Origin: Giardia intestinalis
Taxonomy: Eukaryota
Assembly: GCA_000002435.2 (NCBI GenBank)
Contig: CM018791.1
Reading direction: 5' to 3' (one strand)
DNA: 64,000 nucleotides
Below the pieces are notes generated by a model that was not told where the DNA came from, ran no database searches, and saw only the letters and a program-made list of their open reading frames with translations. Made by a program: the position numbers and the translations under genes. This document shows, piece by piece, positions 1,176 to 28,091 of this stretch; the stretch's first letter is position 1; each line of letters opens with the position of its first letter.

Positions 1176-1255
1176 CAGTAAACGTGCTATTTTTAGAATT
1201 TAATCAACTAGCAGCAGCAGAAAGCGGGCGTTCTGGGAATAAGTTTACACTAAGA

Positions 1256-9908: not shown

Positions 9909-11519
9909 ATGGACGAATACCTATCCACCCTCACTGTGAGCCGCATGCTCACGCCCCACTCGGCCATTGTCACCCCGCAGAGCAGCCTGGACAAGTACAT
10001 TCTCCGTTGTCTCCCCGCGTCTTCCCTGGACCCTGAGGTTCTCAAGAATGTGATGTCGGACGTGGGGTTTGTTATCCGGGAAAAGTGCCATTGGATGGTT
10101 CAGTGCTTTGTGGAAAAGCTTGTCGACGATGACACGCGGATGGATCTGAGCACGGACAGCCGCAACTATTACGTCCTCACCGAGTGTTATGCCTCTGACT
10201 CTCTTCAGGCCCTTGTTGTCACGAGAGACAGAGTCAAAAAGCCCTTTACTGAGGACGAGATAATACAGACCCTCTTACAGCTCATTATGCCCGTTGAGTT
10301 CCTTATGAAGATTGGGTGGCGTGACAAAAGCTTCTTTAAGCACGTCCTCCACCCTAATCGTCTCCGTGTGAGCAACAACGGCTTGATATCCCTCGATATC
10401 TGCCATGCCATTGTGTCCAGCAAGATCGTCCTCGAACAGTTTCGTGACGAACAATCTTACATGCCACCTGAGGCCATCTTCAGCAACGCTTCTACATATG
10501 ACGAGAGAAGTTTCATCTGGACAATAGGCTTTATTCTCTTTAATATGATGTGCTCCGGATACTCCTACGGGGAGATCAACTTCAGGGACGTGACTCACAA
10601 ACCAGATTATGAAGGTGACACAGATGATGAAGGTAACGAAAAGTCTGAGAAAGAACGCATAGAAGGCATGGACATGTATCTCTATGTTAGCAAACGATTG
10701 AATACAGAGCTTTCGAGGTACTACTCCAGGCAGCTGAGGGAGATAATAAAGACGATGCTTTCTGCATACTACGGTGAAAGGCCCACCATTCTGAACATCT
10801 ACGCCCGCCCCTTCATCTTTTCACACATCATGGACGTATACAAAATGAGGGGCGAGTTCTCTGTCGAAGGAGGGACGCCTCTGATGGTTGCAGCACGCAT
10901 CGGAGACATGCACTACATTACCCAGTGTGCCTCGCAGTTTCACATCCAGGACACCAAGGGAAGGACTGCTCTTATGTTTGCAGCTGCCAATGGGTGTGCG
11001 CAGGCCTGCGACTATCTCATCCCGCACGAGTCCAGTCAACGGGACTATAAAAAGTGGACAGCGCTTATGTATGCCGCTGCAAATGGGCATGTCAACTGCG
11101 CCAAGCTCCTTTATATGCACGAAAACGGTCTTTGCAATGTCGACAATGATACCGCGCTGATTATTGCTACCGAGCGGAACCATGTGGAGATAGTTGATTT
11201 TCTGGCTCCATTCGAGTCTGGAAGGGAGCGACAAAACGGGGAAAGCGCTTTGGTTGTCGCGGCATGGCACTGCTATCCGCGATGCGTTGCCCTACTCATG
11301 CATACCGAAGCTCCCCGCTATGCGGAGAGGGCGCTCAAGGCCGTCACAGACCCTCTATGCATAGGGTCCGAGGCCAAGAAGCAGGTTATTATAGCAATGC
11401 TCACGGACTATCTCGGCGCGAAGGTCCTGCCCCTTAAGTATATCAGTGAGCCGCGCGAAGAGTTCCTCACAGAGAACATAGGGTTACTAGCGCAGACAAA
11501 TTCGTTACACATACTCTAA
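9909..11519 (+). CDS. NEK-like kinase domain (predicted catalytically inactive) fused to C-terminal ankyrin repeats
   Basis: The N-terminal half has a kinase-fold layout (APE-like MPPEAIF, TIGFILFNMM), but HRD is replaced by HPNRL and no DFG is present. The C-terminal half has clear ankyrin repeats (GGTPLMVAARIGDMHYI.., GRTALMFAAANGCAQACDYLI, KWTALMYAAANGHVNCAKLL, DTALIIATERNHVEIVDFL). Confidence 0.7.
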   Translation: MDEYLSTLTVSRMLTPHSAIVTPQSSLDKYILRCLPASSLDPEVLKNVMSDVGFVIREKCHWMVQCFVEKLVDDDTRMDLSTDSRNYYVLTECYASDSLQALVVTRDRVKKPFTEDEIIQTLLQLIMPVEFLMKIGWRDKSFFKHVLHPNRLRVSNNGLISLDICHAIVSSKIVLEQFRDEQSYMPPEAIFSNASTYDERSFIWTIGFILFNMMCSGYSYGEINFRDVTHKPDYEGDTDDEGNEKSEKERIEGMDMYLYVSKRLNTELSRYYSRQLREIIKTMLSAYYGERPTILNIYARPFIFSHIMDVYKMRGEFSVEGGTPLMVAARIGDMHYITQCASQFHIQDTKGRTALMFAAANGCAQACDYLIPHESSQRDYKKWTALMYAAANGHVNCAKLLYMHENGLCNVDNDTALIIATERNHVEIVDFLAPFESGRERQNGESALVVAAWHCYPRCVALLMHTEAPRYAERALKAVTDPLCIGSEAKKQVIIAMLTDYLGAKVLPLKYISEPREEFLTENIGLLAQTNSLHIL

Positions 11520-11536: not shown

Positions 11537-11959
11537 ATGAGCGCTGTTGCTCCAAGTGGCTCTGAAATGGTCGTCGAGTCTCCGGATGAGCAGAGCCACG
11601 CCAGCGCGTCTTCCTCCTCCGACGACTATACCAGCGGGACGACTACTGAAAGCAACGAAGAGGAATCCGAAGAAGATAATGAGGAAGAAGAGTCTGAAGA
11701 CGAAGACGAAGAGGATGAGTCTGAAGAGGATGAAGATGAAGAGGAAGAGGAAGAGTATGAAGAAGAAGAAGAGGAGGAAGAAGAGGAAGAGGAGGAAGAG
11801 AGCGAAGAAGAGGAGACGTCCGAGGAATCTGAGGAGGAGACTGGGGAGTCTGAGGAGGACGAAGAGGAGACCAGCGAGGACGAGGAGCAGTCGGCGCAGA
11901 GCGCGCTCGGCCGGTTCCTCGCAGAGCACAGCCTTGAAAGCGGGAGCGAGCCGGAGTAA
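11537..11959 (+). CDS. Glu/Asp-rich acidic low-complexity protein (140 aa)
   Basis: ATG with AT-rich initiator (TAAATTTTGCATG). ORF is built on a GAR trinucleotide repeat giving long poly-E/D tracts. AGTAAAT poly(A) motif overlaps its TAA stop (GGAGTAAATG), which supports it as a real transcription unit. The alternative frames (poly-K/R, poly-S) are products of the same repeat. Confidence 0.4.
   Translation: MSAVAPSGSEMVVESPDEQSHASASSSSDDYTSGTTTESNEEESEEDNEEEESEDEDEEDESEEDEDEEEEEEYEEEEEEEEEEEEEESEEEETSEESEEETGESEEDEEETSEDEEQSAQSALGRFLAEHSLESGSEPE
11650..11900. repeat. Imperfect GAA/GAG (GAR)n trinucleotide repeat, about 250 bp
   Basis: Runs of gaagaggaagaagag etc. All frames on both strands are open across it, which explains the several overlapping low-complexity ORFs. 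Confidence 0.7.
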
Positions 11960-11960
11960 A

Positions 11961-12043
11961 TGCCAGCTGTGGGGTTCGAACCCACGCGGTCTTGCAACCA
12001 ATGGGACTTGAATCCATCGCCTTAACCACTCGGCCAAACTGGC
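11961..12043 (-). tRNA. tRNA-Leu (anticodon CAA), class II tRNA with long variable arm
   Basis: The reverse complement reads GCCAGTT-TG-GCCGAGTGGTTAAGGC-G-ATGGA-TTCAAGT-CCCAT-TGGTTGCAAGACCGCG-GTGGGTTCGAACCCCAC-AGCTGGC-A. The 7-bp acceptor stem includes one G-U pair. The D-loop GCCGAGTGGTTAAGGC is canonical for Leu/Ser tRNAs. The anticodon loop TTCAAGT gives anticodon CAA. The T-arm is GTGGG/TTCGAAC/CCCAC. Length is 83 nt and CCA is not encoded. Confidence 0.85.
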
Positions 12044-12114
12044 GCGCCCGCGCACACACACCAGACACGCACTTTCTGGCGTACTCTTATTTTTCACTCT
12101 GTCAGAGATTGTGT

Positions 12115-12121
12115 GTTTACT
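12115..12121 (-). promoter_or_regulatory. Poly(A) signal AGTAAAC overlapping the stop codon of the ABC transporter gene
   Basis: The minus strand reads ...ATC GGG TAG TAA ACA. The sequence TAGTAAAC contains the exact Giardia AGTAAAC signal. Confidence 0.45.
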
Positions 12122-15100
12122 ACCCGATCAGCGCCAATGCAAGGCTCAGCCGCCTGCGCATCCCCCCGCTGAGCTGACGCGCCTGCCGGTCCAAGACATC
12201 GTAGAGATAGACGAAGGATGCAAGCTTCTCAACGACATTCTTCTCGTCCGCCTTCGAAACGCCGTGTAGACGCGCAAAGAGCGTCAGGTGATCCCGGACG
12301 CTCAGAATGGGAATGTATGCGTCATGCTGAGGACAGAGCCCGATGGATTTGTATATCTCGCTGGGGTCTCGGCGCACATCCCACCCGTTTATGATTACCG
12401 TTCCTTTTGTGGGCTTGATGAGCCCCGTCATCATGGATATGGTCGTGGACTTGCCAGCCCCGTTACTTCCCAGAAACGCAAAGCATGTGCTGCGCGGAAG
12501 GTGGAAACTCACGTCTCGGACTGCCACAAATGCAGGTGGATAAAATTTCTGCAGGTTGCATACAATCACAGGAGTAGTGCTCCTAATTCCATTATACATG
12601 TACTGTCGCTCTGCCAGCACGTCAATGTCCATTTCGGCCTGGCCCGTCCGGACTGCGTAGTCGCGACCGGTGCGCGGAGGGGGCAAAGCCTTCTTCCGAT
12701 GTGTTGGCATAGCATTCAGCTGAACATTGATTGGAGGACGAACGTAAGTGGAGGAGTCAAGGTAAGTTCCATCTGTTTCTTCTTCGATCCCACATCCAAC
12801 CAGGGAACCGGGGCTCGTTTGGCACCGGCACCCTTCAACAGAGTCTGCTTCCAAGGCTGATATGCCAGTGATTGTGGAAACATCGGTGAGCATCGTAGCC
12901 GTGGCTAAGAGTTGGTCGGTGCTTTCAGGAACTGCTTTAGTCAGCACAAGCCGTGTGCTCGCGCTGCCATTTGTAAGCTGCGAATCGCGTGCGATCGACA
13001 CTAAGTCAGCATTGTTAAGGTTAAATGTAGAAGCACCATTGGAAGACTTGCTCCTCTTACAACAACAGGTAAATATGAAGTTCCAAGGAAGAGGCACGCC
13101 GTTAGATTCTCTGGGAATGATGTAATCGAAATATATTGTCAGGAGGAAAAAGATTGTGCCCTCAACCCACATGCCAAGGATAAGCCATCGCATGGGGGAG
13201 TTCATGAAGCTCTTGAAGTCCTGTGCGCTCCAGCCCACAAAACCCAAGATTGCTGCGAAGCTCATCATGGGGGTGAAAAAGTACCACCAGAGAAGGTTTT
13301 CTGTCTGCACCTCTCCTTCTATCATTAAAACAATGGCGAGTACGATAATCAAGATATTTCCGACGAGTGTTGAGAGCTGAGTATTGGGGAAGAACAAGGA
13401 GAAGAGGAACGCCGTTGTGAGTTGTCCGTATGCTCCTGCCGTGAAGACCAGCAGAATCATGCCGAAGTCCATTTTCCTAAGCAGGCTGAGCTTGAAAACA
13501 AAGTAGCCTAGCACCACCATAACGCTATATACCAGCACCGCAAAGCAGAGTTGGTATATGAAGTTAGCGCACCAGTATAGCCAGGTAGGCACGCCGTTTA
13601 GCTTGAACATCTGTCGAAGACCCTGTTGACGGTCCAGAACGACGGGGAACATGTGCATTGGGACCATGCTCATGCATGCAAGGGCTAGCATAATAAGTGC
13701 AAGCATCACCTTCATCTTGTCCTCGCCAGAGGTTATGGGGAAGGTCCAGACCCAGTCCCAGGGCTGTAATCCAAAGCGAATATTGATAGACGTGGCAGGG
13801 CTTGTGTACGAGGCAGCAGGGCTTATACCATAACTTGCGCGTGCAATGGCCTCGACTAATCTGGCGTGCACTTCATTGTGGATGGTTATGGCCCGCGTAT
13901 CCAAAAGCGATGTCTCCTCAATAATAGATGGCGCTTTTGCAGGCGGGAGAGTGATGGATGAATTGACTGATGTTCCGGGCATACTCATTATATCGTTAAT
14001 CCCAAACTCTTTTGCCCGCTGCACGATCGACGTCGTATTAAACCTTAACCGCAGAGTCAAGCGTTTATAAGGATAGTTTCCTAACTTAGCAGGTAAGTAT
14101 GAGTGAATAACGGGTCTGAGTACTTTGATCCCTCCTGTTTCTGAGTACGATTCCGCTGTATCAAACTCCAGAACAGCCAAGGGCACCTTGCTAAGTACGT
14201 AATTATAACACTGTTGTATAGTAGCCAAATCGGTAGGATCGACGTACACTCTCTTGGTAAGGTTGCCACACTCGACAGGCTCGCTGTAGCAACGATCATA
14301 GTACACGGTTCCCTCTGGCCTAGGTATCCCCCCGCTGCGCTGAATGTATAAGAGTTCGTCCAGTAGGGTATCAATTGTGTCATACTTAGAGTATCCATTG
14401 ACAAAGTAAAAGTCGGGCTTTAGCTGAAAGTCGTCCGAGATAGTAGTAGTTGATGTGTACATAGGTACGGCAAGGGGCTTCACAGAGAAGTAGTCAAGGT
14501 AGTTTGTCCCTCCACTTGTAGAAAGATCGGTGAAGAGGCTGTCGAACTTGGTGCTCATGAAGGACGACATGGCCACGCTTACCTGGTTCTTGATCGACGA
14601 ACTTACGGGAAGGCCCATTACTGTGAAGACCTTGTAGTCCACAGAAGAAAACGGAATGGTGGTATTATTGACAGTTAGATTGTAAGAATACACCATTCGA
14701 TGGCCGCGCAAGGCGTCTTGGAGGACAATGGTCTCATCAATTCCGGACCCAAAGCGCCCTGTCTTATCGAAGACATATATCCTTCCTGTACCACCGCGCC
14801 TTTGCATCATGTTACTATAACGAATGCTCTTGGTCCCTAAGTCAGTTCCATTAGGCAAGAGGTCAGGAACCTCTGACTCAGAGATGGTACCTCCTCCAAG
14901 CCAAATGATCGGCTGGGAGTTGACCTTGCCTATGAACCTCTCGCTAGCAGGACAGGCCATTGGCTCCCCAAAGGTATCATAGCCATCGCAGTCCTCTATG
15001 TACCCGAAACCCCCAAAGCTCTTGAGCATGCGGCAAACAGTGCATATGGAATCAGATCGACTCGCTACTCTCTGTGCGAGGGAGTTCAGAAGCCCCATTA

Positions 15101-18100
15101 GCCAGGGAACAAATACGTCAGAGAGGATCCACCCCAAGATAATAAGAAGAACCGGGAGGAAAAACACGGAGAATATCCCCATCTTCGTGGAGGCATCGTA
15201 CCGATACATCTTCGTCAGGAGCGCAGTGAAAACACGCGGCCGGACTCTCCGCGGGTTTAAAATTTCGTTAATCATTTCCGGGGTAAACTTCTCGATGCGA
15301 ATCTCCTCTCCATTTATCAATGTATCATGCGCTTCGGCGTCAGTGTACTTCAGAAGCGCAGGGTCACTCATATCGCTGTCAACACTCACATCAGTAGCAT
15401 GCTGTGGCAACTGTTGGTCCTCCCCGAGGGCGCTTGATCCCTGATTTGGCAGCTTGTTATCGATGTTCGAGGGAGAAGTGTGGTCCAGAGTAGAGGAAAG
15501 GTTTGCAAGTTCCTTTATGTTGACACCCTGAAGAGCATCCTGCTGGCTGGTATACTTATCCATTTGAGAAAAGACGCCTGCTTGGTAGATTTTTCCTAGC
15601 TTAATGAAGACTTCCTCTAGAGTCGTGCCCTCTAGCTGATAATCTGCCACGAGGGGCCCTAATGACCCGAGTCTATTATCCCCAAGGCTCAAAGAGCCAA
15701 CCGAAGGTATGTCACGAACAATCTCCTGGGAGTTTTCATCAAGTGTATGCCTTCCCGTCTTATGTGTCTCCACAAACAGGATAAACCCAGGCAGCGCATA
15801 CTCAGCCATTAAATTGACAGAATATACCAACGATTGGCCTGTTTGATTTATCAGACCAATGCGTGGCTGTGATTTTTCACGTAAAAAGTCAGCTGTGTCC
15901 GTCGTCTTGGTAACATACTCGATTTCTGGATACGATTGCTGCAGCCAGTATTTAACTAGTTCGGACATAACATTCGCTGCCTTTGTTGAAGAGGCTATGA
16001 TGGTGAACTGATAACCACTTCCGTAGAGCCTCTTGAGCTCTAGAGAAGTGCCAGAGGCGATGACCTTTCCACTAGACATGATTGCAATCTCGTCAGATAG
16101 GTAGTCAACCTCTGTCATATCATGAGAAGTCAGCAGGATGCCCGGGGGTGGCCGATGAATTCGCTTAACGTGAAGATCCTTCCCCTTGGCGCTCCCAGTA
16201 ACAACGGGAACATTCATGTGATTGCGGCTTGTCTTCTGGATCGCGCTCCAGACGATTCTCTTAGTTTCGGGGTCAGTCCCTGTTGTGGCTTCATCAAAAA
16301 GGAGCAGCTTGTGGTATCCACACGTGGCGATGGCAATGCAGAGGCGCCGCTGCATGCCGCCAGAGAATTTCTTACACGGCTTGTCACGATATTCGTAAAG
16401 AGCCACTTGTCGCAGGTGTTTCTCAACTAACATAGGTATTTCAAACTCAGGGATGTTGTGAAGTAAGCATACGAGCTTAAGATGCTGAACCGGAGTGAGC
16501 CCGGGCCAAAGTGTTGTGTTGTGCTGGGGGCAGACCCCTATTTTGCGACGTATGTGATTCATCTGATAAAGAATAGAGTAGTCGTCGATCCAGCCGTTAC
16601 CTATGCAGGGATTGCGAGCCGAGAGAGGGGATTCTAAGAGGTTCTTGGGCGGTTTGTCGGGATGCAAAGACCCAATGATGCAATTGATTGACGTCGATTT
16701 CCCAGCCCCGTTTTGGCCAAGAAGGCCAAAGATCTGTCCGTGGCAGATGCGAATTGTAAGCCCCCGGACTGCATAGTGATACTTGCCAACCTTATTCTTG
16801 TCTTCCTTCGACCCACTGCAGGCTTTGCGGACAAACGTTTTCTGCAGGTGGTGTGTAACTAAAACTGTGTTCTTAAGATTGCTAGCTGTCATAGTATGGC
16901 GAAGCACAGACGAGACCTTGGAGTCCAAGGGAAGTAGTGAGCGCAGAACGGCCTCAAACACAGAGCCTGGAACAGGCTGTCGACCTGTGAGGAAGTCAGA
17001 TTCGCCCTTCTGTCGTCTAGCTTTCCTGAAGCAAACGCAGCAGAGGCTCTCAGTCCCGTCAGGCTGCTGTGCCGTTGCACGGAAGGTATGCGGAGCACGT
17101 TCCAGCACGTCTCCAGTAGCGTCCACGAGTGGAAGATACTCGTCATCCAGGCTATAATCCACTGTGTGTGCGTTGGTTATACCAGCCTTCTTATATGCGT
17201 CACGCTTGGCTAAACGTCGACGATAGCGGCTTTCACGATCATCCAGTATGCTGCTGAGAGAGTACCCTTCACCAGATGTACTCCAATAGTCCTTTGTAAA
17301 GAGCTGCCATGGTTTTCTGCAGAGGCTTGAGTGACTCGGAACGGCCTCAGAGACAAACCACGTGATCAGGAAGTACAGGATAGTGTCCAGCAGCATAAAC
17401 ACAAGATAAACTACCGGTGGAGGAGCCCTGTATGTGCAAATTGATTGTTTATCGACTGGCTGATTGAGGCATGGGGACGACTCACCGCGAGTGAACCAGG
17501 TTGAAAACGTCCACGGGTTCTTCGGAGAAACCAGCTGCATCTCAAAGGTTCTCGGATTGGCATCGGAGGTGGGCATAGCGGTCTCAACCATCTGTAGAGT
17601 TGTCTGAATAATGGGGGTAAAGGGAAACAGAAGTTGAAGAAGAAATGCCCCAAACTGGTTTATGAATGTGGGATCATAGATTCTCTCAGGGGTTGTCATA
17701 GTGAAGACCATTGTCTCAACAAACGACCCGGCGACCATTACAAAACCAATGGACATCCCTAGCTTAATAGTACCAAGAAAAGAACTGAAGAAGAGCCCAA
17801 ACATAGTTATCGTCGCCGCAGCCATAATATTGAAAACTAGAAATGATACAGGGTCAATCCAAGGATATACGTCTGTTCCTCCAGGCATCATATATGCAAT
17901 GATGAAATAAGGAAGCCAGGTTATCATGAAAATGAGCAACTGGAATGAGAATTGGGCGAGAATGTATATGCAATCGTTAACGCCCATGAGACGGAGAGAC
18001 TCGAACCTGCCTGAATCCTTCTCTGCAATAGAATTGCTCAGGGAGAGAAGAAACTGCATTAGAAAGACGGTAATTACGAAGAACTTGCTCATAAACTCAT

Positions 18101-18884
18101 CTGGAAGACGAGGATCATCGTCACGACCGAAAAACGGCAGCTGAGTCAATCGCGGATTGAAGTCCACGCCTATTCCTTCTGAGACAAGAAGGATAGCTCG
18201 GCCCAGCGCCATCTGAACTCGAAGAGGCACCGTTGCTGCCATGCCACGTGATGCAGACATGGAAACCTGGTCCCGCAGGTAGAAGGCATAGAAATTTGGA
18301 AATGCAAGCAGAGTCTGGTTATAGTTGATCAGGATAGACAGGTCACTGAGGATTTCCTTGTCGGATGAGGGAACTGTTTGTCCACCAGAGGTGCCACTGC
18401 CCTGCTTCTCAAACGGAGCATCGAAGCCAATCATAAAAGTAAAGTGTTTAGGATCTTGCCGCAGGGTGTTCTCTGCTTCGACCCTGGTGCTGAAGCCCTG
18501 GAGGTCAGTGTCAAAATCCAGCCCCGACTGCTCGGCCACTTTCTTCATCACTTTTCTCACGTATGGATTATCTGGGTAGAAGCCTAGAGTCTTGCAATTG
18601 CGTGTCTGATCAGGAATTAACGTCCCGAAGCCATAGCGGCCGTTGGCATCGTCAAGGACAAAGCACTTGGGCACCCTCATGTCCTCGTCTGGCCAGATAG
18701 TAGGTTTGAGATTATCAGATGATTGATAGTAGGCAACCAGAGGATTTAAGTAGAGTACAAGCACAAGGATCAGAGGCAAAGCAAAGCGTAGGAAAAGTAT
18801 CAGCCAGCCCCCCTGGATCATGTCCACATATTGCTTGAAGATGATGGCCCTGTATTGCGACGTGTATAAAGAGCGCGTCCTCAT
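12120..18884 (-). CDS. ABC transporter, ABCA-like full transporter (TMD-NBD-TMD-NBD), with the C-terminal NBD truncated after the signature motif
   Basis: NBD1 has Walker A GQNGAGKSTS, signature FSGGMQRRLCIA, Walker B LLLFDEATTGTDP and H-loop LLTSHDMTE. NBD2 has Walker A GSNGAGKSTT, Q-loop GLCPQHD and signature LSGGMRRRLSLALALIG, then an immediate stop. No Walker B or H-loop follows in any frame. ATG at 18884 has an AT-rich initiator. Confidence 0.85.
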   Translation of the reverse strand: MRTRSLYTSQYRAIIFKQYVDMIQGGWLILFLRFALPLILVLVLYLNPLVAYYQSSDNLKPTIWPDEDMRVPKCFVLDDANGRYGFGTLIPDQTRNCKTLGFYPDNPYVRKVMKKVAEQSGLDFDTDLQGFSTRVEAENTLRQDPKHFTFMIGFDAPFEKQGSGTSGGQTVPSSDKEILSDLSILINYNQTLLAFPNFYAFYLRDQVSMSASRGMAATVPLRVQMALGRAILLVSEGIGVDFNPRLTQLPFFGRDDDPRLPDEFMSKFFVITVFLMQFLLSLSNSIAEKDSGRFESLRLMGVNDCIYILAQFSFQLLIFMITWLPYFIIAYMMPGGTDVYPWIDPVSFLVFNIMAAATITMFGLFFSSFLGTIKLGMSIGFVMVAGSFVETMVFTMTTPERIYDPTFINQFGAFLLQLLFPFTPIIQTTLQMVETAMPTSDANPRTFEMQLVSPKNPWTFSTWFTRGESSPCLNQPVDKQSICTYRAPPPVVYLVFMLLDTILYFLITWFVSEAVPSHSSLCRKPWQLFTKDYWSTSGEGYSLSSILDDRESRYRRRLAKRDAYKKAGITNAHTVDYSLDDEYLPLVDATGDVLERAPHTFRATAQQPDGTESLCCVCFRKARRQKGESDFLTGRQPVPGSVFEAVLRSLLPLDSKVSSVLRHTMTASNLKNTVLVTHHLQKTFVRKACSGSKEDKNKVGKYHYAVRGLTIRICHGQIFGLLGQNGAGKSTSINCIIGSLHPDKPPKNLLESPLSARNPCIGNGWIDDYSILYQMNHIRRKIGVCPQHNTTLWPGLTPVQHLKLVCLLHNIPEFEIPMLVEKHLRQVALYEYRDKPCKKFSGGMQRRLCIAIATCGYHKLLLFDEATTGTDPETKRIVWSAIQKTSRNHMNVPVVTGSAKGKDLHVKRIHRPPPGILLTSHDMTEVDYLSDEIAIMSSGKVIASGTSLELKRLYGSGYQFTIIASSTKAANVMSELVKYWLQQSYPEIEYVTKTTDTADFLREKSQPRIGLINQTGQSLVYSVNLMAEYALPGFILFVETHKTGRHTLDENSQEIVRDIPSVGSLSLGDNRLGSLGPLVADYQLEGTTLEEVFIKLGKIYQAGVFSQMDKYTSQQDALQGVNIKELANLSSTLDHTSPSNIDNKLPNQGSSALGEDQQLPQHATDVSVDSDMSDPALLKYTDAEAHDTLINGEEIRIEKFTPEMINEILNPRRVRPRVFTALLTKMYRYDASTKMGIFSVFFLPVLLIILGWILSDVFVPWLMGLLNSLAQRVASRSDSICTVCRMLKSFGGFGYIEDCDGYDTFGEPMACPASERFIGKVNSQPIIWLGGGTISESEVPDLLPNGTDLGTKSIRYSNMMQRRGGTGRIYVFDKTGRFGSGIDETIVLQDALRGHRMVYSYNLTVNNTTIPFSSVDYKVFTVMGLPVSSSIKNQVSVAMSSFMSTKFDSLFTDLSTSGGTNYLDYFSVKPLAVPMYTSTTTISDDFQLKPDFYFVNGYSKYDTIDTLLDELLYIQRSGGIPRPEGTVYYDRCYSEPVECGNLTKRVYVDPTDLATIQQCYNYVLSKVPLAVLEFDTAESYSETGGIKVLRPVIHSYLPAKLGNYPYKRLTLRLRFNTTSIVQRAKEFGINDIMSMPGTSVNSSITLPPAKAPSIIEETSLLDTRAITIHNEVHARLVEAIARASYGISPAASYTSPATSINIRFGLQPWDWVWTFPITSGEDKMKVMLALIMLALACMSMVPMHMFPVVLDRQQGLRQMFKLNGVPTWLYWCANFIYQLCFAVLVYSVMVVLGYFVFKLSLLRKMDFGMILLVFTAGAYGQLTTAFLFSLFFPNTQLSTLVGNILIIVLAIVLMIEGEVQTENLLWWYFFTPMMSFAAILGFVGWSAQDFKSFMNSPMRWLILGMWVEGTIFFLLTIYFDYIIPRESNGVPLPWNFIFTCCCKRSKSSNGASTFNLNNADLVSIARDSQLTNGSASTRLVLTKAVPESTDQLLATATMLTDVSTITGISALEADSVEGCRCQTSPGSLVGCGIEEETDGTYLDSSTYVRPPINVQLNAMPTHRKKALPPPRTGRDYAVRTGQAEMDIDVLAERQYMYNGIRSTTPVIVCNLQKFYPPAFVAVRDVSFHLPRSTCFAFLGSNGAGKSTTISMMTGLIKPTKGTVIINGWDVRRDPSEIYKSIGLCPQHDAYIPILSVRDHLTLFARLHGVSKADEKNVVEKLASFVYLYDVLDRQARQLSGGMRRRLSLALALIG

Positions 18885-18984: not shown

Positions 18985-20421
18985 CTATATTTTTTCAGTT
19001 TTGTCAAAACACGAGAGCTTCCCCACCTGCGGTCTGTAAGTACGGAGCTCCTTACGTAACGTTTGTATTATAACCATGAGCTCATCTATTTCGTCCTGGC
19101 GTTTATCAAGCTCCAGTTTTGCTAAGTTAAGTTCGTGACCTAGTTCGACAACGACGTCAGCATTTGCACCTGCGCCTGCGGCTCCTCTCGAAGTCCTGGC
19201 ATTGCTTGCGTGCTTCTTGCTTAAGTTTTGGGCTGGCAAGATCTGAGAAGAATCCATAGACGATCCTCCTCCAAGTGGTCGATGTGGGAGGTCAGAAGTC
19301 GTAAGAAAGACTGTATCGTAGACGCTTGACGCTGCTATGCGCTCCTTCATTTCTTTGATAAGATTCTCTTTTCGCTCTAGTTCCTTGCGGAGGTCAGATA
19401 CTTCTGCCGTAAGCTGCATAATGCTTACCTGAGCGTCTTGATCTGATACCGTGGCCTCTATCGCCAATTTCATGGTCTCATTGTCAGTAGCCATTCGCGC
19501 CACCTCGTCGTGCAGCACCCTGGCCAGAGACTCCAGCTGAGAGAGCCTGTTCTTAGCCTCTTCGAACTCCAGCTCCTTGTCTAGTGCGGCGATCTTGATC
19601 TCCTCTTGGTCGCGGGAGTCTTTGAAGTCCGAGGTAGAAGTAGAGGGCGCAAAGATTGCATGCTTCTTTCGTAAACTTTCAACGAGTGAAAGAATGGTTC
19701 CTGTTTTCTCGATGGCTGGCTGGAGAAGTGTGTCCGCGAAAGCCGTGTCTGCGAGGGGGTACCCCAGGTCATCGTCCAACTGAATCGATCTGTAGAGGTC
19801 ACAGCCACTGAGGGCACCTATGTCGACGCAATATCGTAAGAGATATGCTGCAATCTGATAGTGACCATATGCAAGGCTAACCATTATGCACGCTTTAGTG
19901 TATGAATCCCGCCAGTTCACCTTGTGCTCGACGATGTACTTCACTGTACATAGAAGGCCGGTGGTGAGTGCATGAAAAAGGACTTTCAAGTGTGCGGTGG
20001 CGAACTTAATGTACACATCTTGCGAAAGAATCGGTATAAAGTAGTTAAACCCCTCTGTAACGTCACGCACAGCTGTTTTGGCGTCTGCCTTCTGCGATTC
20101 TTCAGGCATTTCAAACGGCTGGAGGATGTAGAAGGCTTTAAGGCTATCGTTTTCAATGGCTATCATGCACGCTGTCTGCCGGTTTGCATTAACAATGGTG
20201 GCTTCGTCAGCTGCAAGAATTCCTATCATGCGTAGGTCGTTATTTCTTGTTGCGGCGATTAGGGCAGTGTTCAAGAAGGCATCTTGAACACCCTTAAGCC
20301 GCTGCTTGTGGCATTCTATGAATTCATAGTTACGGGACTCCACGGCCTGGAACCACTCTTCCACCAATGCATCCTTAGAGCTTGACCCGAGGTACGAGTC
20401 CAGGTACTTGAGTGCACCCAT
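18985..20421 (-). CDS. Ankyrin-repeat / coiled-coil protein (Protein 21.1 family)
   Basis: The track ORF 18985..20604 begins with GTG. The likely start is the ATG at 20421 (MGALKYLDSY..), preceded by the strong AT-rich initiator CATTTTAAAATTGAGTTTTATG. An alternative ATG lies at 20481. Ankyrin repeats (LNTALIAATRNNDLRMIGIL, QTACMIAIENDSL) are followed by a long coiled coil in the C-terminal third. Confidence 0.6.
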   Translation of the reverse strand: MGALKYLDSYLGSSSKDALVEEWFQAVESRNYEFIECHKQRLKGVQDAFLNTALIAATRNNDLRMIGILAADEATIVNANRQTACMIAIENDSLKAFYILQPFEMPEESQKADAKTAVRDVTEGFNYFIPILSQDVYIKFATAHLKVLFHALTTGLLCTVKYIVEHKVNWRDSYTKACIMVSLAYGHYQIAAYLLRYCVDIGALSGCDLYRSIQLDDDLGYPLADTAFADTLLQPAIEKTGTILSLVESLRKKHAIFAPSTSTSDFKDSRDQEEIKIAALDKELEFEEAKNRLSQLESLARVLHDEVARMATDNETMKLAIEATVSDQDAQVSIMQLTAEVSDLRKELERKENLIKEMKERIAASSVYDTVFLTTSDLPHRPLGGGSSMDSSQILPAQNLSKKHASNARTSRGAAGAGANADVVVELGHELNLAKLELDKRQDEIDELMVIIQTLRKELRTYRPQVGKLSCFDKTEKI

Positions 20422-20437
20422 AAAACTCAATTTTAAA
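20422..20437. promoter_or_regulatory. 16-bp AT-rich bidirectional initiator between the divergent start codons at 20421 (-) and 20438 (+)
   Basis: The spacer TAAAACTCAATTTTAAA is flanked by an ATG on each strand. Confidence 0.4.
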
Positions 20438-22393
20438 ATGTCCACCGCCCGTTCGGAGTGGTTCGCCGCTGTATACAGCATGGACCATAGAAAGTTGCGG
20501 ACAAATCTCCAAAAGTATAAGCAGAGCCGTGACGAAAGTGGCTTCACGGCGTTGCATATTGCAGCAATGTACGGTGACCTTGAGGCCGTCAAAATCCTTG
20601 CCACGGAAGAAGCCGGATTACTGTCAGTCAGTGGCGAGACAGCGTTATCACTTGCAGTGAGGAACAGGCACCATAAAGTCGTAAGCTATCTAGCTGAAAT
20701 GGAAGGCAGAATTTTACTTGGCGACGGCCGTTCTGCGCTGATTGTGGCCATAGATGTTGCAGACCTCGACACCTTGCGTATGCTGGTACCGTACTCATTG
20801 AACTCAAGTCTTCCAACTAACGAGGATGCTCCAGACGGGCCTGCCACGGTCTTTCAGTACCTGGTTTCTATGGATTTTCACACCCTTATACCGCTCTTTG
20901 CTGAGAATATCCAGTTGACTGAGGCAGACTTTCTTCGGGGCCTGGAGATTGCAAAAGGCCGCACTACAAAAGGCTCCGAGCTTTGCAGAACTTACTTAGA
21001 GCAATATAAAGACTTACTTTTACGGCCAAAGTGCTTGAATTGTAATTCCTTAGCCTGTAAGGTTTCCCAGTTAGAAACTGACTTGAAGAATGCAGAGTCC
21101 TTGCCCAGTGCACTGAAGAATGAGATTGTGCAACTGAAGGCGGTGCTGCTGCGGAGAAACTGCTCAGTTGGTAAGTGCCTAGGGTGCAAGGCTGTGTTGA
21201 CAAGAGCAGGCCCAGACGTCCCATGCCAGGTGTGCAGCTTTGCTCCTGGCCATACTGTGCGAGTGCAGACAGATGGTGGAGTTTCTTTGACGTATGAAAA
21301 ATTAAAAGAGGCGCTCGATTTTGCCCTAGCGGAGAATTTGAGCCTTAAGGCAAAGTTGAATGTGGATGATAGCATTACCGGCGCTACTGGCCTAGATCCA
21401 ATAAGAGCACTGGCCAGCATATCGAAGAGGCTGTCGTTAGAGGACAGAGCTGGCCTGTCAGAGGAAAACCTGACGTGTCTGCTGGCTGCAGTTCGTTCAC
21501 TAGTTCAGCAGGTCAAGGATACTGGTGGAGGCACAGAAGAGTCGCACCGGTTATTGGAGTCTTCCGACTTGTCTAAGATATCGCTGACATCTGGCACCAC
21601 TCCACATAGCTCTCCCGTGAATAGGCACCAGCCAAGCCCCAACGCAGCAGCATTGAAGGGTTCAGAAGCTACAGAAGATGCTGAAATGACCCTCCGGTCA
21701 CTACTGAGGGCCTTGGAAGATATTCGATTTGGGTACCCTACTGCACTCATGCGAGCAGCAATGGAAAACAAGGTGGATCAAGCAAAGCAACTTCTTTTCC
21801 AGGCAAATTTGCGGGACAAGGACGGGAAAACAGCCTTAATGTATGCTGCAGAAAGCGGGCATACAGACATAGTCAATCTTCTCCTTGATAAAGAGGGATG
21901 TAAGGGTGATAATCAGGGTCGTACTGCACTGATGTATGCCGTAGCGGCCAAGTCATATGAGTGTGCCAAGGTTCTATCTCTAAAGGAGACAAAAATGATT
22001 ACCAATAGCAAGCATAGGCACAAGGGAACAACCGCGCTCATGGTCGCAGCGCGTGCTAACGATGTGGAGCTGGTAAAGATTCTGATGGACAAGGAAGCCA
22101 ACCTAACGCGCGATGACGGCGTGACGGCCCTTATGCAAGCGGCCCAGGCTAACGCATGCGATTGCTTGCGTCTACTTGCTCCCAAAGAAGCCGGAAGATG
22201 TACAAACGATGAGTTTCTCTACGGGCACGGTTACACAGCGTTAATGTTTGCAGCGAGTAATGGGAACTTAGACTCAGTTAAGGTCTTGGTGCATCAAGAG
22301 GCCACAGCCAGGCTTGCAGACGGTCGGCAAGCGATAGACTTAGCGAGCGATAAGGCTGTCATCAATGAGCTTGCTAAGCACATGCCTAAGTAG
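20438..22393 (+). CDS. Ankyrin-repeat / coiled-coil / ankyrin-repeat protein (Protein 21.1 family)
   Basis: The track ORF starts at TTG 20408. The first ATG is at 20438 (MSTARSEW..), preceded by AAACTCAATTTTAAAATG. Ankyrin repeats appear near both termini (SGFTALHIAAMYGDLEAVKIL; GKTALMYAAESGHTDIVNLLL; GRTALMYAVAAKSYECAKVL; GVTALMQAAQANACDCLRLL) around a central coiled coil. Confidence 0.65.
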   Translation: MSTARSEWFAAVYSMDHRKLRTNLQKYKQSRDESGFTALHIAAMYGDLEAVKILATEEAGLLSVSGETALSLAVRNRHHKVVSYLAEMEGRILLGDGRSALIVAIDVADLDTLRMLVPYSLNSSLPTNEDAPDGPATVFQYLVSMDFHTLIPLFAENIQLTEADFLRGLEIAKGRTTKGSELCRTYLEQYKDLLLRPKCLNCNSLACKVSQLETDLKNAESLPSALKNEIVQLKAVLLRRNCSVGKCLGCKAVLTRAGPDVPCQVCSFAPGHTVRVQTDGGVSLTYEKLKEALDFALAENLSLKAKLNVDDSITGATGLDPIRALASISKRLSLEDRAGLSEENLTCLLAAVRSLVQQVKDTGGGTEESHRLLESSDLSKISLTSGTTPHSSPVNRHQPSPNAAALKGSEATEDAEMTLRSLLRALEDIRFGYPTALMRAAMENKVDQAKQLLFQANLRDKDGKTALMYAAESGHTDIVNLLLDKEGCKGDNQGRTALMYAVAAKSYECAKVLSLKETKMITNSKHRHKGTTALMVAARANDVELVKILMDKEANLTRDDGVTALMQAAQANACDCLRLLAPKEAGRCTNDEFLYGHGYTALMFAASNGNLDSVKVLVHQEATARLADGRQAIDLASDKAVINELAKHMPK

Positions 22394-22420
22394 ATAGAAC
22401 TTTTTAGCGTACAATCTAGC

Positions 22421-25690: not shown

Positions 25691-28072
25691 TTAATTTACT
25701 GATAGATCTAGACCGTCATTTCTACTTTTTATGTACTTATCATGATTTTTCTCTAGAACGCTTTGCACATAGGTAACGAAGTCTGGAGAATCTGTAAGGA
25801 ACCGTATCAAGGCAATCTGACCGGCGTCCTCATCCACAGGTGGAGGGCTTATGTTAGATAGTGAAAGAGGATAGGCTAGATCTTGTTTAGTGTCTATATC
25901 CTTGTTCCTATAGTAGCCAGCCAGCCGCTCTTTGTAGAGTCTCCAACACGTGTCGTTGCACCGAAGACTCACCCTCAAGAGCGTCTCGCAAACCAGGTTA
26001 AAGAATGGATTTCTGTTTTTCTTGAGGGACAGTGATGGTAGAAAGGCGAATAACTTACTGTCCAATATCACCCTCTTGAATAGGTTCGCGGAGTCAGTGG
26101 CGAAGATAATGATAGAACTGAGGATTCGTGTAGCGTAGTGTTTTATAATAGTCTGTTGACCTGTTGTGATGCTAAAAAGCATGAGTTGAAGTGTGAGCAA
26201 CGGGTTTTTTCCGTTTTCTGGGGGAGGAAATGCGCATGCAAAAATGCTAAGGGGAGATGGAGAGATGATTCTCCCCTTTATCAGATATGTCTCACAAAGA
26301 TCTATGGACTCTGGACATGTTGTACTTATTGTACCCAAGTACGGAATGTGTCCACAGTAACGGTAATCGAATCTGGCATTCTTAGTTAGGCTGTCTCCAT
26401 CAGCATATAAAACTAGGGCTTCTGTTGAAGCGCTGTTGGTGGCAAGATAGAGCATCTTTCCTATGTCATCGAGAATGCAGAATACACTGGCAAGATGCTT
26501 CATTGTCACGGATATGCGTGCCAGGTAACTAGAATCAAGTCGCCCTGAGACCATCCTTGGCATATGGTGTTGAAGAAACTGTGCCAACAGTTCTATGTAC
26601 GCATCGTATATGGGAACAAGCCCCGTCTCTACTTCACTTGGAAACAGTGCTTGACCGAGCCTGATGCTTCCTATTCCAGATCGACCACCGCTTCTAGCTG
26701 TATCTGCTGACTTAGAATGGCCGTCTGTGCGTGTAGTTTTCTCCCCTGATATCGCTATAATCGCCAACTGTTCAATAATACTGTGTAAAGAGAACCTTGC
26801 AGACGAGCCCTTGCTATCGGTATCGACACTAATGCTATCGTACCTTGATTCATCAGTGCCAAGGACTTCGGCAATGTAAAGCCTTGGAGCACGTAGAATC
26901 ATGCTAACAGAGGTAGAGGAAAACGTACACATGAGCTTAAGAGTATGAAGTGAAGACATACACAGCAGCTCCGGTGAGAACAAGATGCGGGCAACAGTTG
27001 GAAGATAGCGCGCGATCGATCCTATCAATAGAATACTCCCGCTGGCCATAATCTGGCAGAGGAGTTCCACTGCATTCGCTAGCACATCCTCTGTGATAGG
27101 AGAGACGCCACTCAAACGTGCCTTGTGATTGTTCAGCTCGTCCACTTCCTGTTGTGCACCGTTCCTGGCTTGCCCATCTTTTACGGGTCCTGCACACAAC
27201 CAAGTAGACACCTCTACGAAGCTTACTAGAGGAGAATGTAACGGATTGGATGGACATGGAAAACTCTGTGAGGCTTCAAGCAGGTCTTTTGGTAAAAGAT
27301 AATAAAATACAATATCCATAAAGTATGTAGCTAATAGAAAATCATTAATCTTTGTGGCAACGGACTTAGCTACTGGCGAGCATTTGCAAAGTAGAGAGCC
27401 TGTAAAATTATTGACATACGCTATATCAAGTAGCATAAAAAAGGGATTCAAAGGGATGCAAGTGCAGTGAACAGAATTGACAGTAACTGCATATCGTCTC
27501 GTCAACTCATCTAAGAGAATCTCTGTGCCGGTATTCGTGTTTGCTATATATTCCAAGGACAACATCATAGCATCCAGACTATCCATATACCGATTTGTTA
27601 CTATATATCTTTCCTTGAGAGATTTGGCCTCTGTAACGGTCTTCGTGATATAGTCAAGGGCCGTGAACATGGCGTCAAAGAAGAGAGACTCAGGGGCCAT
27701 CAGAAAAGAGAACAGGCTACTCTTAGATCTCCCTTCAGTAATTCTTTCTGATGCCTTAAGAATCAAAAGGGCACTTCTGGCTTCTACCGTATCCTTGATG
27801 TGCTCTCCACATATTTGGACTACCCCTCCACATAAGCAGAGAGGGATCATTGTTATGGCCGCCACCAGATCAATAACGCTCTCTTTAGTTGCAAATTTGG
27901 AGAAGAAGTTGCCGGTCTTTATGCTGACAAGTCTTTCTATGGCAGGAACAGAAAGAAGCTCCTTCACCGTCATTCTCTGAAGCCCGCCAAAGGTGGGTAC
28001 TTGGAGGTACGCTTTGGCTTCTCCAACAATACAATAGCCGCTCTCTATCCGATCGGGCTCCTTTTGCGGCAT
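25691..28072 (-). CDS. Hypothetical protein (about 794 aa)
   Basis: Long ORF. The track start is TTG at 28105. The first ATG is at 28072 (MPQKEPDRI..), preceded by TCTCAAAAATG. No domain recognised. Confidence 0.55.
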   Translation of the reverse strand: MPQKEPDRIESGYCIVGEAKAYLQVPTFGGLQRMTVKELLSVPAIERLVSIKTGNFFSKFATKESVIDLVAAITMIPLCLCGGVVQICGEHIKDTVEARSALLILKASERITEGRSKSSLFSFLMAPESLFFDAMFTALDYITKTVTEAKSLKERYIVTNRYMDSLDAMMLSLEYIANTNTGTEILLDELTRRYAVTVNSVHCTCIPLNPFFMLLDIAYVNNFTGSLLCKCSPVAKSVATKINDFLLATYFMDIVFYYLLPKDLLEASQSFPCPSNPLHSPLVSFVEVSTWLCAGPVKDGQARNGAQQEVDELNNHKARLSGVSPITEDVLANAVELLCQIMASGSILLIGSIARYLPTVARILFSPELLCMSSLHTLKLMCTFSSTSVSMILRAPRLYIAEVLGTDESRYDSISVDTDSKGSSARFSLHSIIEQLAIIAISGEKTTRTDGHSKSADTARSGGRSGIGSIRLGQALFPSEVETGLVPIYDAYIELLAQFLQHHMPRMVSGRLDSSYLARISVTMKHLASVFCILDDIGKMLYLATNSASTEALVLYADGDSLTKNARFDYRYCGHIPYLGTISTTCPESIDLCETYLIKGRIISPSPLSIFACAFPPPENGKNPLLTLQLMLFSITTGQQTIIKHYATRILSSIIIFATDSANLFKRVILDSKLFAFLPSLSLKKNRNPFFNLVCETLLRVSLRCNDTCWRLYKERLAGYYRNKDIDTKQDLAYPLSLSNISPPPVDEDAGQIALIRFLTDSPDFVTYVQSVLEKNHDKYIKSRNDGLDLSVN

Positions 28073-28091
28073 TTTTGAGATGATCCGAGAT

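What the first reader, a model, noticed from the sequence alone, without database searches (positions are those of the whole stretch)
11950..18884. Full-size ABCA-type transporter ends exactly after the NBD2 signature motif, on a canonical poly(A) signal, 76 bp from a tRNA gene
The 2254-aa ABC transporter carries a complete NBD1 (Walker A, Q-loop, signature, Walker B LLLFDEATTGTDP, H-loop). In NBD2 it has Walker A, Q-loop and signature LSGGMRRRLSLALALIG, then an immediate TAG. The Walker B aspartate/glutamate and H-loop histidine needed for ATP hydrolysis at the second site are absent, and they are not recoverable in any frame before the tRNA-Leu at 11961-12043. The stop is embedded in TAGTAAACA, an exact Giardia AGTAAAC polyadenylation signal. 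This argues the transcript really ends here and that the truncation is not a simple sequencing frameshift. A transporter with one complete and one half-built NBD would be mechanistically unusual. It could be a degenerate site in the style of CFTR or TAP, or a pseudogene. It could also mark an old breakpoint where a tRNA plus Glu-rich-gene cassette replaced the gene's 3' end.
Basis: partly seen in the sequence, partly recalled or inferred. Interest (0 to 1): 0.6.

Follow-up and report, generated by a model that had tools for sequence, protein, structure and literature searches.

The report
Diplomonad ABCA transporter with half NBD2
A large Giardia lipid-type ABC transporter gene really does stop in the middle of its second ATP-binding domain. 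The same cut is present in every diplomonad examined and is under strong selection, so it is an ancient working design, not an error or a dead gene.

Summary
ORF 12120-18884 (-) encodes a 2254-aa ABCA-type transporter, 100% identical to Giardia duodenalis WB XP_001710133. NBD1 is complete. NBD2 stops right after the signature helix (…LSGGMRRRLSLALALIG*). The TAG stop overlaps AGTAAAC and lies 76 nt from tRNA-Leu(CAA).

The end point is not peculiar to this locus. Three further G. duodenalis lineages, G. muris, Hexamita inflata, Spironucleus salmonicida and one environmental relative all stop at the same residue (±1). The sister fornicate Kipferlia continues with Walker B, H-loop and a regulatory domain. 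The cut therefore dates to the diplomonad stem.

The half-domain evolves as slowly as NBD1 (dN/dS 0.011 for both). This rules out a pseudogene or sequencing error. Because G. muris, Hexamita and Spironucleus have other downstream neighbours, the tRNA/acidic-gene cassette is not the cause.

No Walker B half is encoded near the gene in any of four genera. AlphaFold models leave the two retained core strands unpaired.

Most likely the protein runs on one catalytic ATP site, built from the NBD1 motifs and the NBD2 signature. A separately encoded missing half is nearly as likely and could not be tested genome-wide. I found no description of this feature in the searched literature. It is a new variant of a known kind.

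The parts
12120..18884 (-). Coding sequence of the 2254-aa ABCA-type full-size transporter, stop codon included. It is 100% identical to G. duodenalis WB XP_001710133.1 / A8B361.
   Evidence: Pfam ABC_tran x2 and ABC2_membrane_3; best solved relatives are human ABCA7/3/4/1
17325..18104 (-). First transmembrane domain (about aa 261-520), ABC-2 type
   Evidence: Pfam ABC2_membrane_3 / ABC2_membrane; region boundaries as used
15990..16814 (-). NBD1, complete: Walker A 16695-16718, Q-loop 16521-16538, signature 16341-16367, Walker B 16287-16307 (D864, E865), H-loop 16119-16139 (H921)
   Evidence: all motif residues invariant in five Giardia orthologues
13050..13724 (-). Second transmembrane domain (about aa 1721-1945)
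   Evidence: AlphaFold model with pLDDT about 85-97 in this stretch; the model matches the ABCA4/7/1/3 structures
12123..12572 (-). Truncated NBD2 (aa 2105-2254). It holds the N-terminal beta hairpin, Walker A 12447-12470, Q-loop 12324-12344, the helical subdomain and signature 12147-12173, and ends with SLALALIG (12123-12146). Walker B, D-loop and H-loop are absent.
   Evidence: dN/dS 0.011; the P-loop and Q-loop strands are unpaired in the model
12120..12122 (-). TAG stop codon directly after Gly2254
   Evidence: The equivalent stops are TGA in G. muris, TGA in Hexamita and Spironucleus and TAA in the environmental relative.
12115..12121 (-). AGTAAAC poly(A)-signal-like heptamer overlapping the stop codon
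   Evidence: conserved as AGTAAAT in two other G. duodenalis lineages; the motif is enriched at stops in this window. Function inferred, not measured.
12044..12119 (.). 76-nt spacer between the stop codon and the tRNA gene. It is poorly conserved between assemblages and encodes no NBD segment in any frame.
11961..12043 (-). tRNA-Leu(CAA). It is a neighbour, not part of the transporter. It is conserved downstream of the gene in G. duodenalis lineages only.
11537..11959 (+). Convergent 140-aa hyper-acidic ORF ending 1 nt from the tRNA.

Best explanation
This is the intact, selectively maintained form of a diplomonad ABCA transporter gene. In the common ancestor of diplomonads the coding sequence was cut immediately after the signature helix of NBD2. 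Every descendant examined has kept that end. I propose that the protein works as an extreme one-sided ABC transporter. The only site that can hydrolyse ATP is the composite site made of NBD1's Walker A, Walker B (D864/E865) and H-loop (H921) together with the perfectly canonical signature LSGGMRRRL donated by the truncated NBD2. The retained two-thirds of NBD2 (beta hairpin, P-loop, Q-loop, helical subdomain, signature) would then have two jobs. It clamps onto ATP bound at NBD1, and it passes that closure to the second transmembrane domain through its Q-loop and helical subdomain. Its own Walker A could at most bind nucleotide opposite the NBD1 signature, without hydrolysis, because this gene encodes no Walker B, D-loop or H-loop for it. 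Shown: the end point, its age, its conservation, the absence of the missing half nearby, and the lack of any segment within the modelled parts of the chain that fills the gap. Inferred: expression, the single-site mechanism, and that no partner supplies the missing half.
For: The same end (±1 residue) occurs in G. duodenalis assemblages A, B and E and a fourth lineage, in G. muris, Hexamita inflata, Spironucleus salmonicida and one metagenomic relative. The stop codons differ (TAG, TGA, TGA, TGA, TAA). The two Kipferlia bialata ABCA proteins run on with APPIVVLDEPSTGLDP…LLTTHS… and a regulatory domain. Among the best 150 of 1.84 billion representatives in an exhaustive HMMER search, only these diplomonad-type proteins end exactly after …LIG. 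Purifying selection is strong: dN/dS is 0.011 for the half NBD2, 0.011 for NBD1 and 0.052 for the whole gene. Identity between G. duodenalis and G. muris is 70-75% in the half NBD2 against 42% overall. Identity between Giardia and Kipferlia is 53-60% in the N-part of NBD2 against 45% in the N-part of NBD1. NBD1 has every catalytic motif and the NBD2 signature is invariant in all lineages. No Walker B half is found within ±10 kb in any frame in Giardia (two species), Hexamita or Spironucleus. Hexamita's NBD2 Walker A is GPNGAAKTT, with Ala in place of the Gly before Lys, which hints that the second site is not a standard ATPase site. A transcriptome-wide screen for trans-splicing in Giardia and Spironucleus recovered all known cases and reported only the p68 helicase gene as a new one (PMC5224939). 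A search with the Kipferlia NBD2 C-terminal profile listed no diplomonad fragment among its best 120 short proteins.
Against: In the P-loop ATPase core, as I recall the strand order from the literature, the P-loop strand and the Q-loop strand are not neighbours. They are held together by the Walker B and H-loop strands, which are missing here. In both AlphaFold models the segments TCFAFLG/EIFGLLG and IGLCPQ/MGLCLQ are not in any sheet, while their NBD1 counterparts are. Even so, these hydrophobic strands and the Walker A are strongly conserved. That fits better if something still pairs with them. Both signatures are canonical, unlike in known transporters with one dead site. The search for a separate fragment was weak. 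The word-indexed database missed even the Kipferlia, Hexamita and Spironucleus orthologues (versus 48). No complete diplomonad genome could be scanned. Expression and ATPase activity were not measured.
Confidence: 0.45

Rival explanations
1. Split domain, rejoined as protein. In the diplomonad ancestor a rearrangement separated the last ~190 codons (Walker B, D-loop, H-loop, regulatory domain 2). They now form a separate gene elsewhere. Its product inserts its strands into the half NBD2 and rebuilds a complete, possibly fully active, second ATP site.
For: This explains the conservation of the NBD2 Walker A, of the unpaired hydrophobic core strands and of the canonical NBD1 signature. It needs no loss of function at the moment of the split. 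There is a direct precedent of the same age in the same organisms. [quoted passage not shown] Fungal dyneins are split inside AAA1/AAA4 ATPase modules (PMC5100056). A free-standing dynein C-terminal ORF is visible in the G. muris locus. The literature lists further ABCA-type genes in Giardia, G. muris and Spironucleus whose architecture I could not inspect (PMC7985675).
Against: No such fragment lies within ±10 kb in four genera. None appears among the best 120 short proteins matching the Kipferlia NBD2 C-terminal profile. A fragment as conserved as the N-part, which shares 22 exact 5-mers with Kipferlia, should have ranked at the top. That search is not exhaustive, however. Hexamita's Walker A deviates from the consensus.
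Confidence: 0.37
2. Split gene, rejoined as RNA. The annotated ORF is only the 5' piece. The mRNA is completed by spliceosomal trans-splicing to a distant 3' exon, as for Giardia Hsp90, dynein and p68 helicase.
For: Giardia has five known trans-spliced introns (PMC5224939, PMC10711314). The break falls at a position where an ancestral domain is cleanly divided.
Against: The sequence after the last codon is GGG|TAGTAAAC in G. duodenalis and GGA|TGATGTTCG in G. muris. Neither matches the GTATGT donor, which I cite from memory, and nothing is conserved between the two species. A poly(A)-type signal overlaps the stop. In G. muris a convergent gene ends 36 nt away. The transcriptome-wide junction screen found no ABC gene in Giardia and no trans-splicing at all in Spironucleus, which has the same truncation. 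The Kipferlia gene has no intron at the break. No assembled protein in the 90% cluster extends past …ALIG.
Confidence: 0.05
3. Dead or damaged gene, or an assembly or sequencing artefact at this locus. This includes a recent replacement of the 3' end by the tRNA/acidic-gene cassette.
For: Truncation inside a domain is what a nonsense or frameshift error looks like. In Trichomonas a very similar ABCA ORF that stopped after the signature proved to be a sequencing error (PMC3378599).
Against: The end is identical in many independent assemblies and in five lineages that use three different stop codons. dN/dS is 0.011. The reading frame is uninterrupted over 2254 codons. The downstream neighbours differ between genera while the end point stays the same.
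Confidence: 0.02

Closest known systems
Full-size ABCA transporters (human ABCA1, ABCA3, ABCA4, ABCA7; Kipferlia bialata ABCA GIQ82084/GIQ79794)
   Same: The order TMD1-NBD1-TMD2-NBD2, with large loops after the first helix of each half. ABC-2 type membrane domains. The best sequence and fold matches are ABCA7/3/4/1. A domain follows NBD1 where ABCA proteins have regulatory domain 1. Kipferlia is the nearest complete relative, with 60% identity in the N-part of NBD2.
   Different: The last ~200 residues of the family plan are absent: Walker B, D-loop and H-loop of NBD2, and regulatory domain 2 with the C-terminal tail.
ABC transporters with one degenerate, non-hydrolytic ATP site (CFTR, TAP1/TAP2, MRP1, yeast Pdr5). 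This comparison rests on my own knowledge of the literature.
   Same: Functional asymmetry: one consensus site and one site that cannot hydrolyse. The Walker A of the inactive site is retained.
   Different: In those proteins the NBD fold is complete, only single catalytic residues are replaced, and the signature facing the dead site is degenerate. Here a third of the domain is missing and the NBD1 signature FSGGMQRRL is canonical.
Split genes of diplomonads (dynein heavy chains, Hsp90, p68 helicase)
   Same: Ancient breaks inside conserved genes. The separate N-terminal dynein DHC4 gene is found in both Giardia and Spironucleus, and in Giardia its product is translated independently (PMC5100056). 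This shows that the lineage tolerates such splits.
   Different: For those genes both pieces are known. Here only the 5' piece is known, and no splice donor follows it.
Partial ABC ORFs of Trichomonas vaginalis (PMC3378599)
   Same: An ABCA-type ORF with Walker A and signature, followed shortly by a stop codon.
   Different: In Trichomonas the remainder lies directly downstream. At least one case was a sequencing error and others look like decaying copies. In diplomonads nothing lies downstream and the end is conserved under selection.
SMC/Rad50-type ABC ATPase heads (own knowledge)
   Same: They show that an ABC-type ATPase domain can be assembled from two separated segments.
   Different: In SMC/Rad50 the two segments belong to one chain, and the break lies before the signature, not after it.

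Membership tests
ABCA subfamily, full-size transporter | Two ABC-2 type (type V) transmembrane domains alternating with two NBDs in one chain | tested here: met
   Pfam ABC2_membrane_3 (two stretches) and ABC_tran (two stretches). The AlphaFold model of TMD2+NBD2 matches ABCA4/7/1/3 structures with TM-score 0.5-0.59.
ABCA subfamily, full-size transporter | Closest sequence relatives are ABCA proteins | tested here: met
   The best solved relatives are ABCA7, ABCA3, ABCA4 and ABCA1, with E 5e-55 to 9e-53. The best named non-diplomonad relatives are annotated 'ABC transporter A, ABCA' in Kipferlia.
ABCA subfamily, full-size transporter | Both NBDs complete (Walker A, Q-loop, signature, Walker B, D-loop, H-loop) | tested here: not met
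   NBD1 is complete. NBD2 ends at Pfam profile position 124 of 137, before Walker B.
ABCA subfamily, full-size transporter | A regulatory domain after each NBD | tested here: not met
   A folded alpha/beta domain follows NBD1 in the Spironucleus model. Nothing follows the half NBD2.
ABC transporters with a degenerate ATP site (CFTR/TAP type) | Complete NBD fold with substitutions at the catalytic Glu and/or H-loop His of one NBD | tested here: not met
   The segment that would carry these residues is absent altogether.
ABC transporters with a degenerate ATP site (CFTR/TAP type) | Degenerate signature in the partner NBD facing the inactive site | tested here: not met
   The NBD1 signature is FSGGMQRRL in Giardia, LSGGMQRRV in Hexamita and LSGGMRRRV in Spironucleus.
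ABC transporters with a degenerate ATP site (CFTR/TAP type) | Walker A of the inactive site retained for nucleotide binding | tested here: met
   GSNGAGKS in Giardia, GSSGAGKS in Spironucleus and GVNGAGKT in the environmental relative. Hexamita deviates with GPNGAAKT. Nucleotide binding itself was not tested.
Giardia trans-spliced split genes | The 5' piece is followed by a GTATGT-type splice donor (consensus cited from memory) | tested here: not met
   The sequence is GGGTAGTAAAC in G. duodenalis and GGATGATGTTCG in G. muris, with no shared motif.
Giardia trans-spliced split genes | A 3' piece elsewhere, with a branch/acceptor motif and an intron half complementary to the 5' piece | not testable with these tools
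   No complete Giardia genome is available in the collections. Only ±10 kb around the gene could be read.
Giardia trans-spliced split genes | Junction reads in RNA-seq | not tested
   Only indirect evidence exists. The published transcriptome-wide screen lists no ABC gene (PMC5224939).
Pseudogene | Relaxed selection and/or disrupted reading frame | tested here: not met
   dN/dS is 0.011 in the half NBD2 and 0.052 over the whole gene. The ORF is intact in all lineages.

The most novel reading that the evidence does not exclude
A naturally split ABC nucleotide-binding domain. The Walker B/D-loop/H-loop half of NBD2, with or without the regulatory domain, has been a separate diplomonad gene since the stem of the group. 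Its product completes the beta sheet of the membrane-anchored half by strand insertion. This would be a two-polypeptide NBD broken inside the ATPase core of a eukaryotic transporter. If no such partner exists, the equally unusual alternative holds: a transporter that has run for a very long time on a structurally incomplete NBD.
Probability: 0.37. Interest if true: 0.75.

Novelty: new variant of a known kind. Interest (0 to 1): 0.6.

Why it matters
As far as I know, every ABC transporter studied so far, including those with one dead ATP site, keeps two fully folded NBDs. A lineage-wide ABCA that lacks Walker B, D-loop, H-loop and the second regulatory domain, and is conserved with dN/dS around 0.01, is a natural experiment on the minimum a second NBD must provide. 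The retained parts are the signature, the Q-loop/helical subdomain and a P-loop. It poses a question that one genome scan and one pull-down can settle: either a full-size ABC transporter works with one and a half NBDs, or the ATPase core can be assembled from two gene products. It also provides a clean molecular character that unites diplomonads and excludes Kipferlia. Finally, it concerns a membrane protein of a human parasite whose design differs from host ABCA proteins.

Tried and rejected
1. I looked for the missing half in the window by tblastn with the NBD1 C-terminal half. I then ran an HMM of seven NBD C-terminal halves on six-frame translations of the window and of the G. muris, assemblage B and ERR3333382 loci, and of the Hexamita and Spironucleus loci under genetic code 6. 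Only NBD1 was found.

2. A word-indexed protein search with the Kipferlia NBD2 C-terminal profile returned plant, algal and other ABCA gene-model fragments among its best 120 short proteins. None was from a diplomonad. This index also missed the true orthologues, so the negative result is weak.

3. Re-running the full-length query at E ≤ 1e-3 to find Giardia paralogues added nothing useful.

4. A metagenome scan with the diplomonad half-NBD2 profile returned only generic ABC ATPases at 44% identity or less. It did not even recover the known environmental relative.

5. Completion from within the same chain was tested with an AlphaFold model of Spironucleus from NBD1 to the C-terminus and a model of Giardia TMD2+NBD2. 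No segment pairs with the orphan strands. The N-terminal ~520 residues of the Spironucleus chain, and Giardia residues 1-1699, were not in the models.

6. An intron at the break in the complete relative was ruled out. Kipferlia codes residues 641-2170 in one exon.

7. The ~30-aa insertion in NBD1 is not a compensating element, because it is also present in Kipferlia.

8. Literature searches for a description of this truncation, or for the gene's accession numbers, found nothing. I could not map the gene to a GL50803 identifier, so the published proteomic hits for 'ABC transporter, A family' cannot be assigned to it.
Full report
**What is at the locus**

The window is Giardia duodenalis assemblage A. 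ORF 12120..18884 on the minus strand is 100% identical to the annotated 'ABC transporter family protein' XP_001710133.1 / A8B361 of strain WB. Pfam finds two ABC_tran stretches and ABC-2 type membrane domains. The nearest solved relatives are human ABCA7, ABCA3, ABCA4 and ABCA1.

NBD1 is complete. It has Walker A at aa 723, Q-loop GVCPQH, signature FSGGMQRRL at aa 840, Walker B LLLFDE with D864/E865, and H-loop ILLTSHD with H921.

NBD2 has Walker A GSNGAGKS (aa 2139), Q-loop IGLCPQH and signature LSGGMRRRL (aa 2238). It then ends with SLALALIG and TAG. The Pfam match stops at profile position 124 of 137. The chain end aligns with residue 1942 of the 2146-aa ABCA7. About 200 residues of the family plan are therefore missing: Walker B, D-loop, H-loop and the second regulatory domain.

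The stop overlaps AGTAAAC (12115-12121). AGTRAAY sits at or near the stop of 6 of 23 large ORFs in this window, against 0.24 per kb per strand overall. This is an ordinary Giardia gene end. The tRNA-Leu(CAA) lies 76 nt further on. A convergent 140-aa acidic ORF ends 1 nt from that tRNA.

**The missing half is not nearby**

A tblastn search with the NBD1 C-terminal half finds only NBD1 in the window. So does an HMM built from seven NBD C-terminal halves and run over all six frames with stops masked. The HMM search also covered ±10 kb around the orthologues in G. muris, assemblage B and a fourth G. duodenalis lineage.

**The end point is ancient**

All Giardia orthologues end at the same residue. 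These are assemblage A isolates, P15 (E), GS (B), a lineage at 81% identity from run ERR3333382, and G. muris at 42% overall identity. In G. muris the stop is TGA, and a convergent Pecanex-type gene ends 36 nt away. There is no tRNA-Leu there.

I then ran an exhaustive HMMER search of 1.84 billion representative proteins with a profile of the last 1200 residues. The hits were identified. The best non-Giardia hits fall into two groups.
- Two Kipferlia bialata ABCA proteins (2170 and 2406 aa) run straight on after …LSGGMRRRLSLALALIG. They continue with APPIVVLDEPSTGLDP…LLTTHS… and a regulatory domain.
- Hexamita inflata (1927 aa, …LSLALAIIG*), Spironucleus salmonicida (1566 or 1618 aa, depending on the annotation; …NLAIGMM*) and a metagenomic relative (…LSLLISLIG*, TAA) stop at the same place.

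Among the 148 non-Giardia proteins listed, only these three end exactly there. The few others with short tails contain Walker B and are cut arbitrarily.

Kipferlia has no intron at the position. The Hexamita and Spironucleus loci carry no Walker B half within ±10 kb in any frame under their genetic code. The simplest reading is a single event in the diplomonad stem, after the split from Kipferlia.

This removes the idea that the G. duodenalis-specific tRNA/acidic-gene neighbourhood created the break.

**It is under selection**

Between assemblages A and B, dN/dS is 0.011 for the half NBD2, 0.011 for NBD1, 0.052 for the whole gene and 0.14 for the linker before NBD2. Identity between G. duodenalis and G. 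muris is 70-75% in the half NBD2 against 42% overall. Against Kipferlia, the N-part of NBD2 is more conserved (53-60%) than the N-part of NBD1 (45%). Pseudogene and sequencing-error explanations are excluded.

**Is it completed at the RNA level?**

This is unlikely, for five reasons.
- The bases after the last codon differ between species: GGG|TAGTAAAC against GGA|TGATGTTCG. They do not resemble the Giardia GTATGT donor, which I cite from memory.
- The spacer to the tRNA is not conserved between assemblages.
- A published transcriptome-wide junction screen recovered all known trans-spliced introns. It found only the p68 helicase in addition, and none at all in Spironucleus, which shares the truncation (PMC5224939).
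- A later intron survey lists the same four trans-spliced genes (PMC10711314).
- No assembled protein in the cluster runs past …ALIG.

**Is it completed within the same chain?**

I modelled Spironucleus from NBD1 to the C-terminus (1099 aa, mean pLDDT 73) and Giardia TMD2 plus the half NBD2 (555 aa, mean pLDDT 77; the half NBD2 scores mostly 80-96).

In NBD1 the P-loop strand, Q-loop strand, Walker B strand and H-loop strand are all assigned as beta strands. In the half NBD2 the equivalent P-loop and Q-loop segments are not in any sheet, and no other part of the modelled chain is placed against them.

The Giardia model matches ABCA4/7/1/3 structures. Its NBD part superposes on about 150 of 230-285 residues of complete NBDs at 1.5-2 Å. 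These are predictions, and the N-terminal ~520 residues were not included.

**How it most likely works**

What this gene encodes allows exactly one catalytic site: NBD1's Walker A/B and H-loop closed by the invariant NBD2 signature. The retained NBD2 parts are the ones needed to clamp that ATP and to couple to TMD2 through the Q-loop and helical subdomain. I therefore favour a one-site transporter in which the second Walker A at most binds nucleotide (confidence 0.45). Hexamita's non-consensus GPNGAAKT fits a non-standard second site.

The main rival, at 0.37, is that the missing half survives as a separate gene and is added as a second polypeptide. Several points favour it.
- In the P-loop ATPase core, as I recall the strand order from the literature, the two retained strands are bridged by the two missing ones.
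- The retained strands and the Walker A remain strongly conserved.
- Both signatures are canonical, unlike in CFTR/TAP-type proteins.
- Diplomonads have a precedent of the same age. The N-terminal part of a dynein heavy chain is a separate gene in both Giardia and Spironucleus, and in Giardia it is translated independently (PMC5100056).

Against it, no fragment appeared in a search with the Kipferlia C-terminal profile. A fragment as conserved as the N-part should have ranked first. That search uses a word index that also missed the true orthologues (versus 48). No complete diplomonad genome was available to scan, so the question stays open.

**Comparison with what is known**

The protein belongs to the ABCA lineage by sequence, membrane-domain type and fold. 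It fails two of the family's structural features: a complete NBD2 and a second regulatory domain. It behaves like the asymmetric ABC transporters in having one competent site, but it fails the features that define them.

The Trichomonas partial ABC ORFs look similar on paper. They differ because the rest of each gene lies directly downstream and at least one was a sequencing error (PMC3378599).

I found no paper that describes the diplomonad truncation. The library does not hold most subscription journals.

**Verdict**

The feature is real, ancient and functional. It is a new variant of a known kind. The mechanism is inferred. One genome scan and one pull-down would decide between the two leading readings.

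Noticed in passing
window 11537-11959 (+) and 11961-12043 (-): A 140-aa hyper-acidic ORF with long Glu/Asp/Ser runs ends 1 nt from the tRNA-Leu(CAA) gene on the other strand. The same 1-nt spacing is kept in assemblage B (L002 16854-16936 and 16938-17357). The mRNA 3' end of the acidic gene must therefore run into the tRNA gene.
   Followed up: partly
window, stops of ORFs 9909-11519, 11537-11959, 12120-18884, 18985-20604, 25691-28105, 28092-31172: AGTRAAY lies within -12..+60 nt of the stop in 6 of 23 large ORFs, several times overlapping the stop codon itself. The background is 0.24 per kb per strand.
   Followed up: yes
L001 (G. muris) 333-1587 (-): A free-standing 417-aa ORF carries only AAA_lid_11 and Dynein_C. 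It is a C-terminal piece of a dynein heavy chain, which fits the known split dynein genes of Giardia.
   Followed up: no
L007 (Spironucleus) 14880-16324 versus 21785-23229: Three genes (81 aa, a dynein light chain and 225 aa) are repeated in inverted orientation, together with a SpoU methylase pair. The first copy starts 23 nt after the ABCA stop.
   Followed up: no
P0173 (Spironucleus ABCA), residues about 1290-1618: The last ~330 residues are rich in Ala/Gly/Arg/Val, while the rest of the protein is rich in Ile/Asn/Lys/Gln. This suggests a sharp change in base composition inside the gene.
   Followed up: no
window about 16140-16260 (-), aa 876-915 of the transporter: A ~30-aa insertion lies between the helix after Walker B and the H-loop strand of NBD1. 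It is shared by Giardia, Hexamita and one Kipferlia ABCA, and is partly kept in Spironucleus. It is older than the truncation.
   Followed up: partly
P0024/P0170 (Hexamita inflata): The NBD2 Walker A reads GPNGAAKTT, with Ala where P-loops almost always have Gly before the Lys. The cluster also holds 553-aa and 1111-aa pieces of a further copy of the gene.
   Followed up: no
L008 (JGI sample 3300010163, contig Ga0136175_10250347): An environmental relative ends at the same residue with a TAA stop, so it uses the standard code. It is only 48% identical to G. duodenalis in the half NBD2. It comes from an unsampled diplomonad-like lineage.
   Followed up: partly
window 18985-20604 (-) and 20408-22393 (+): The mechanical ORF list shows two long ORFs on opposite strands that overlap by about 200 nt. 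This is probably an effect of alternative start codons. In assemblage B the annotated genes do not overlap.
   Followed up: no
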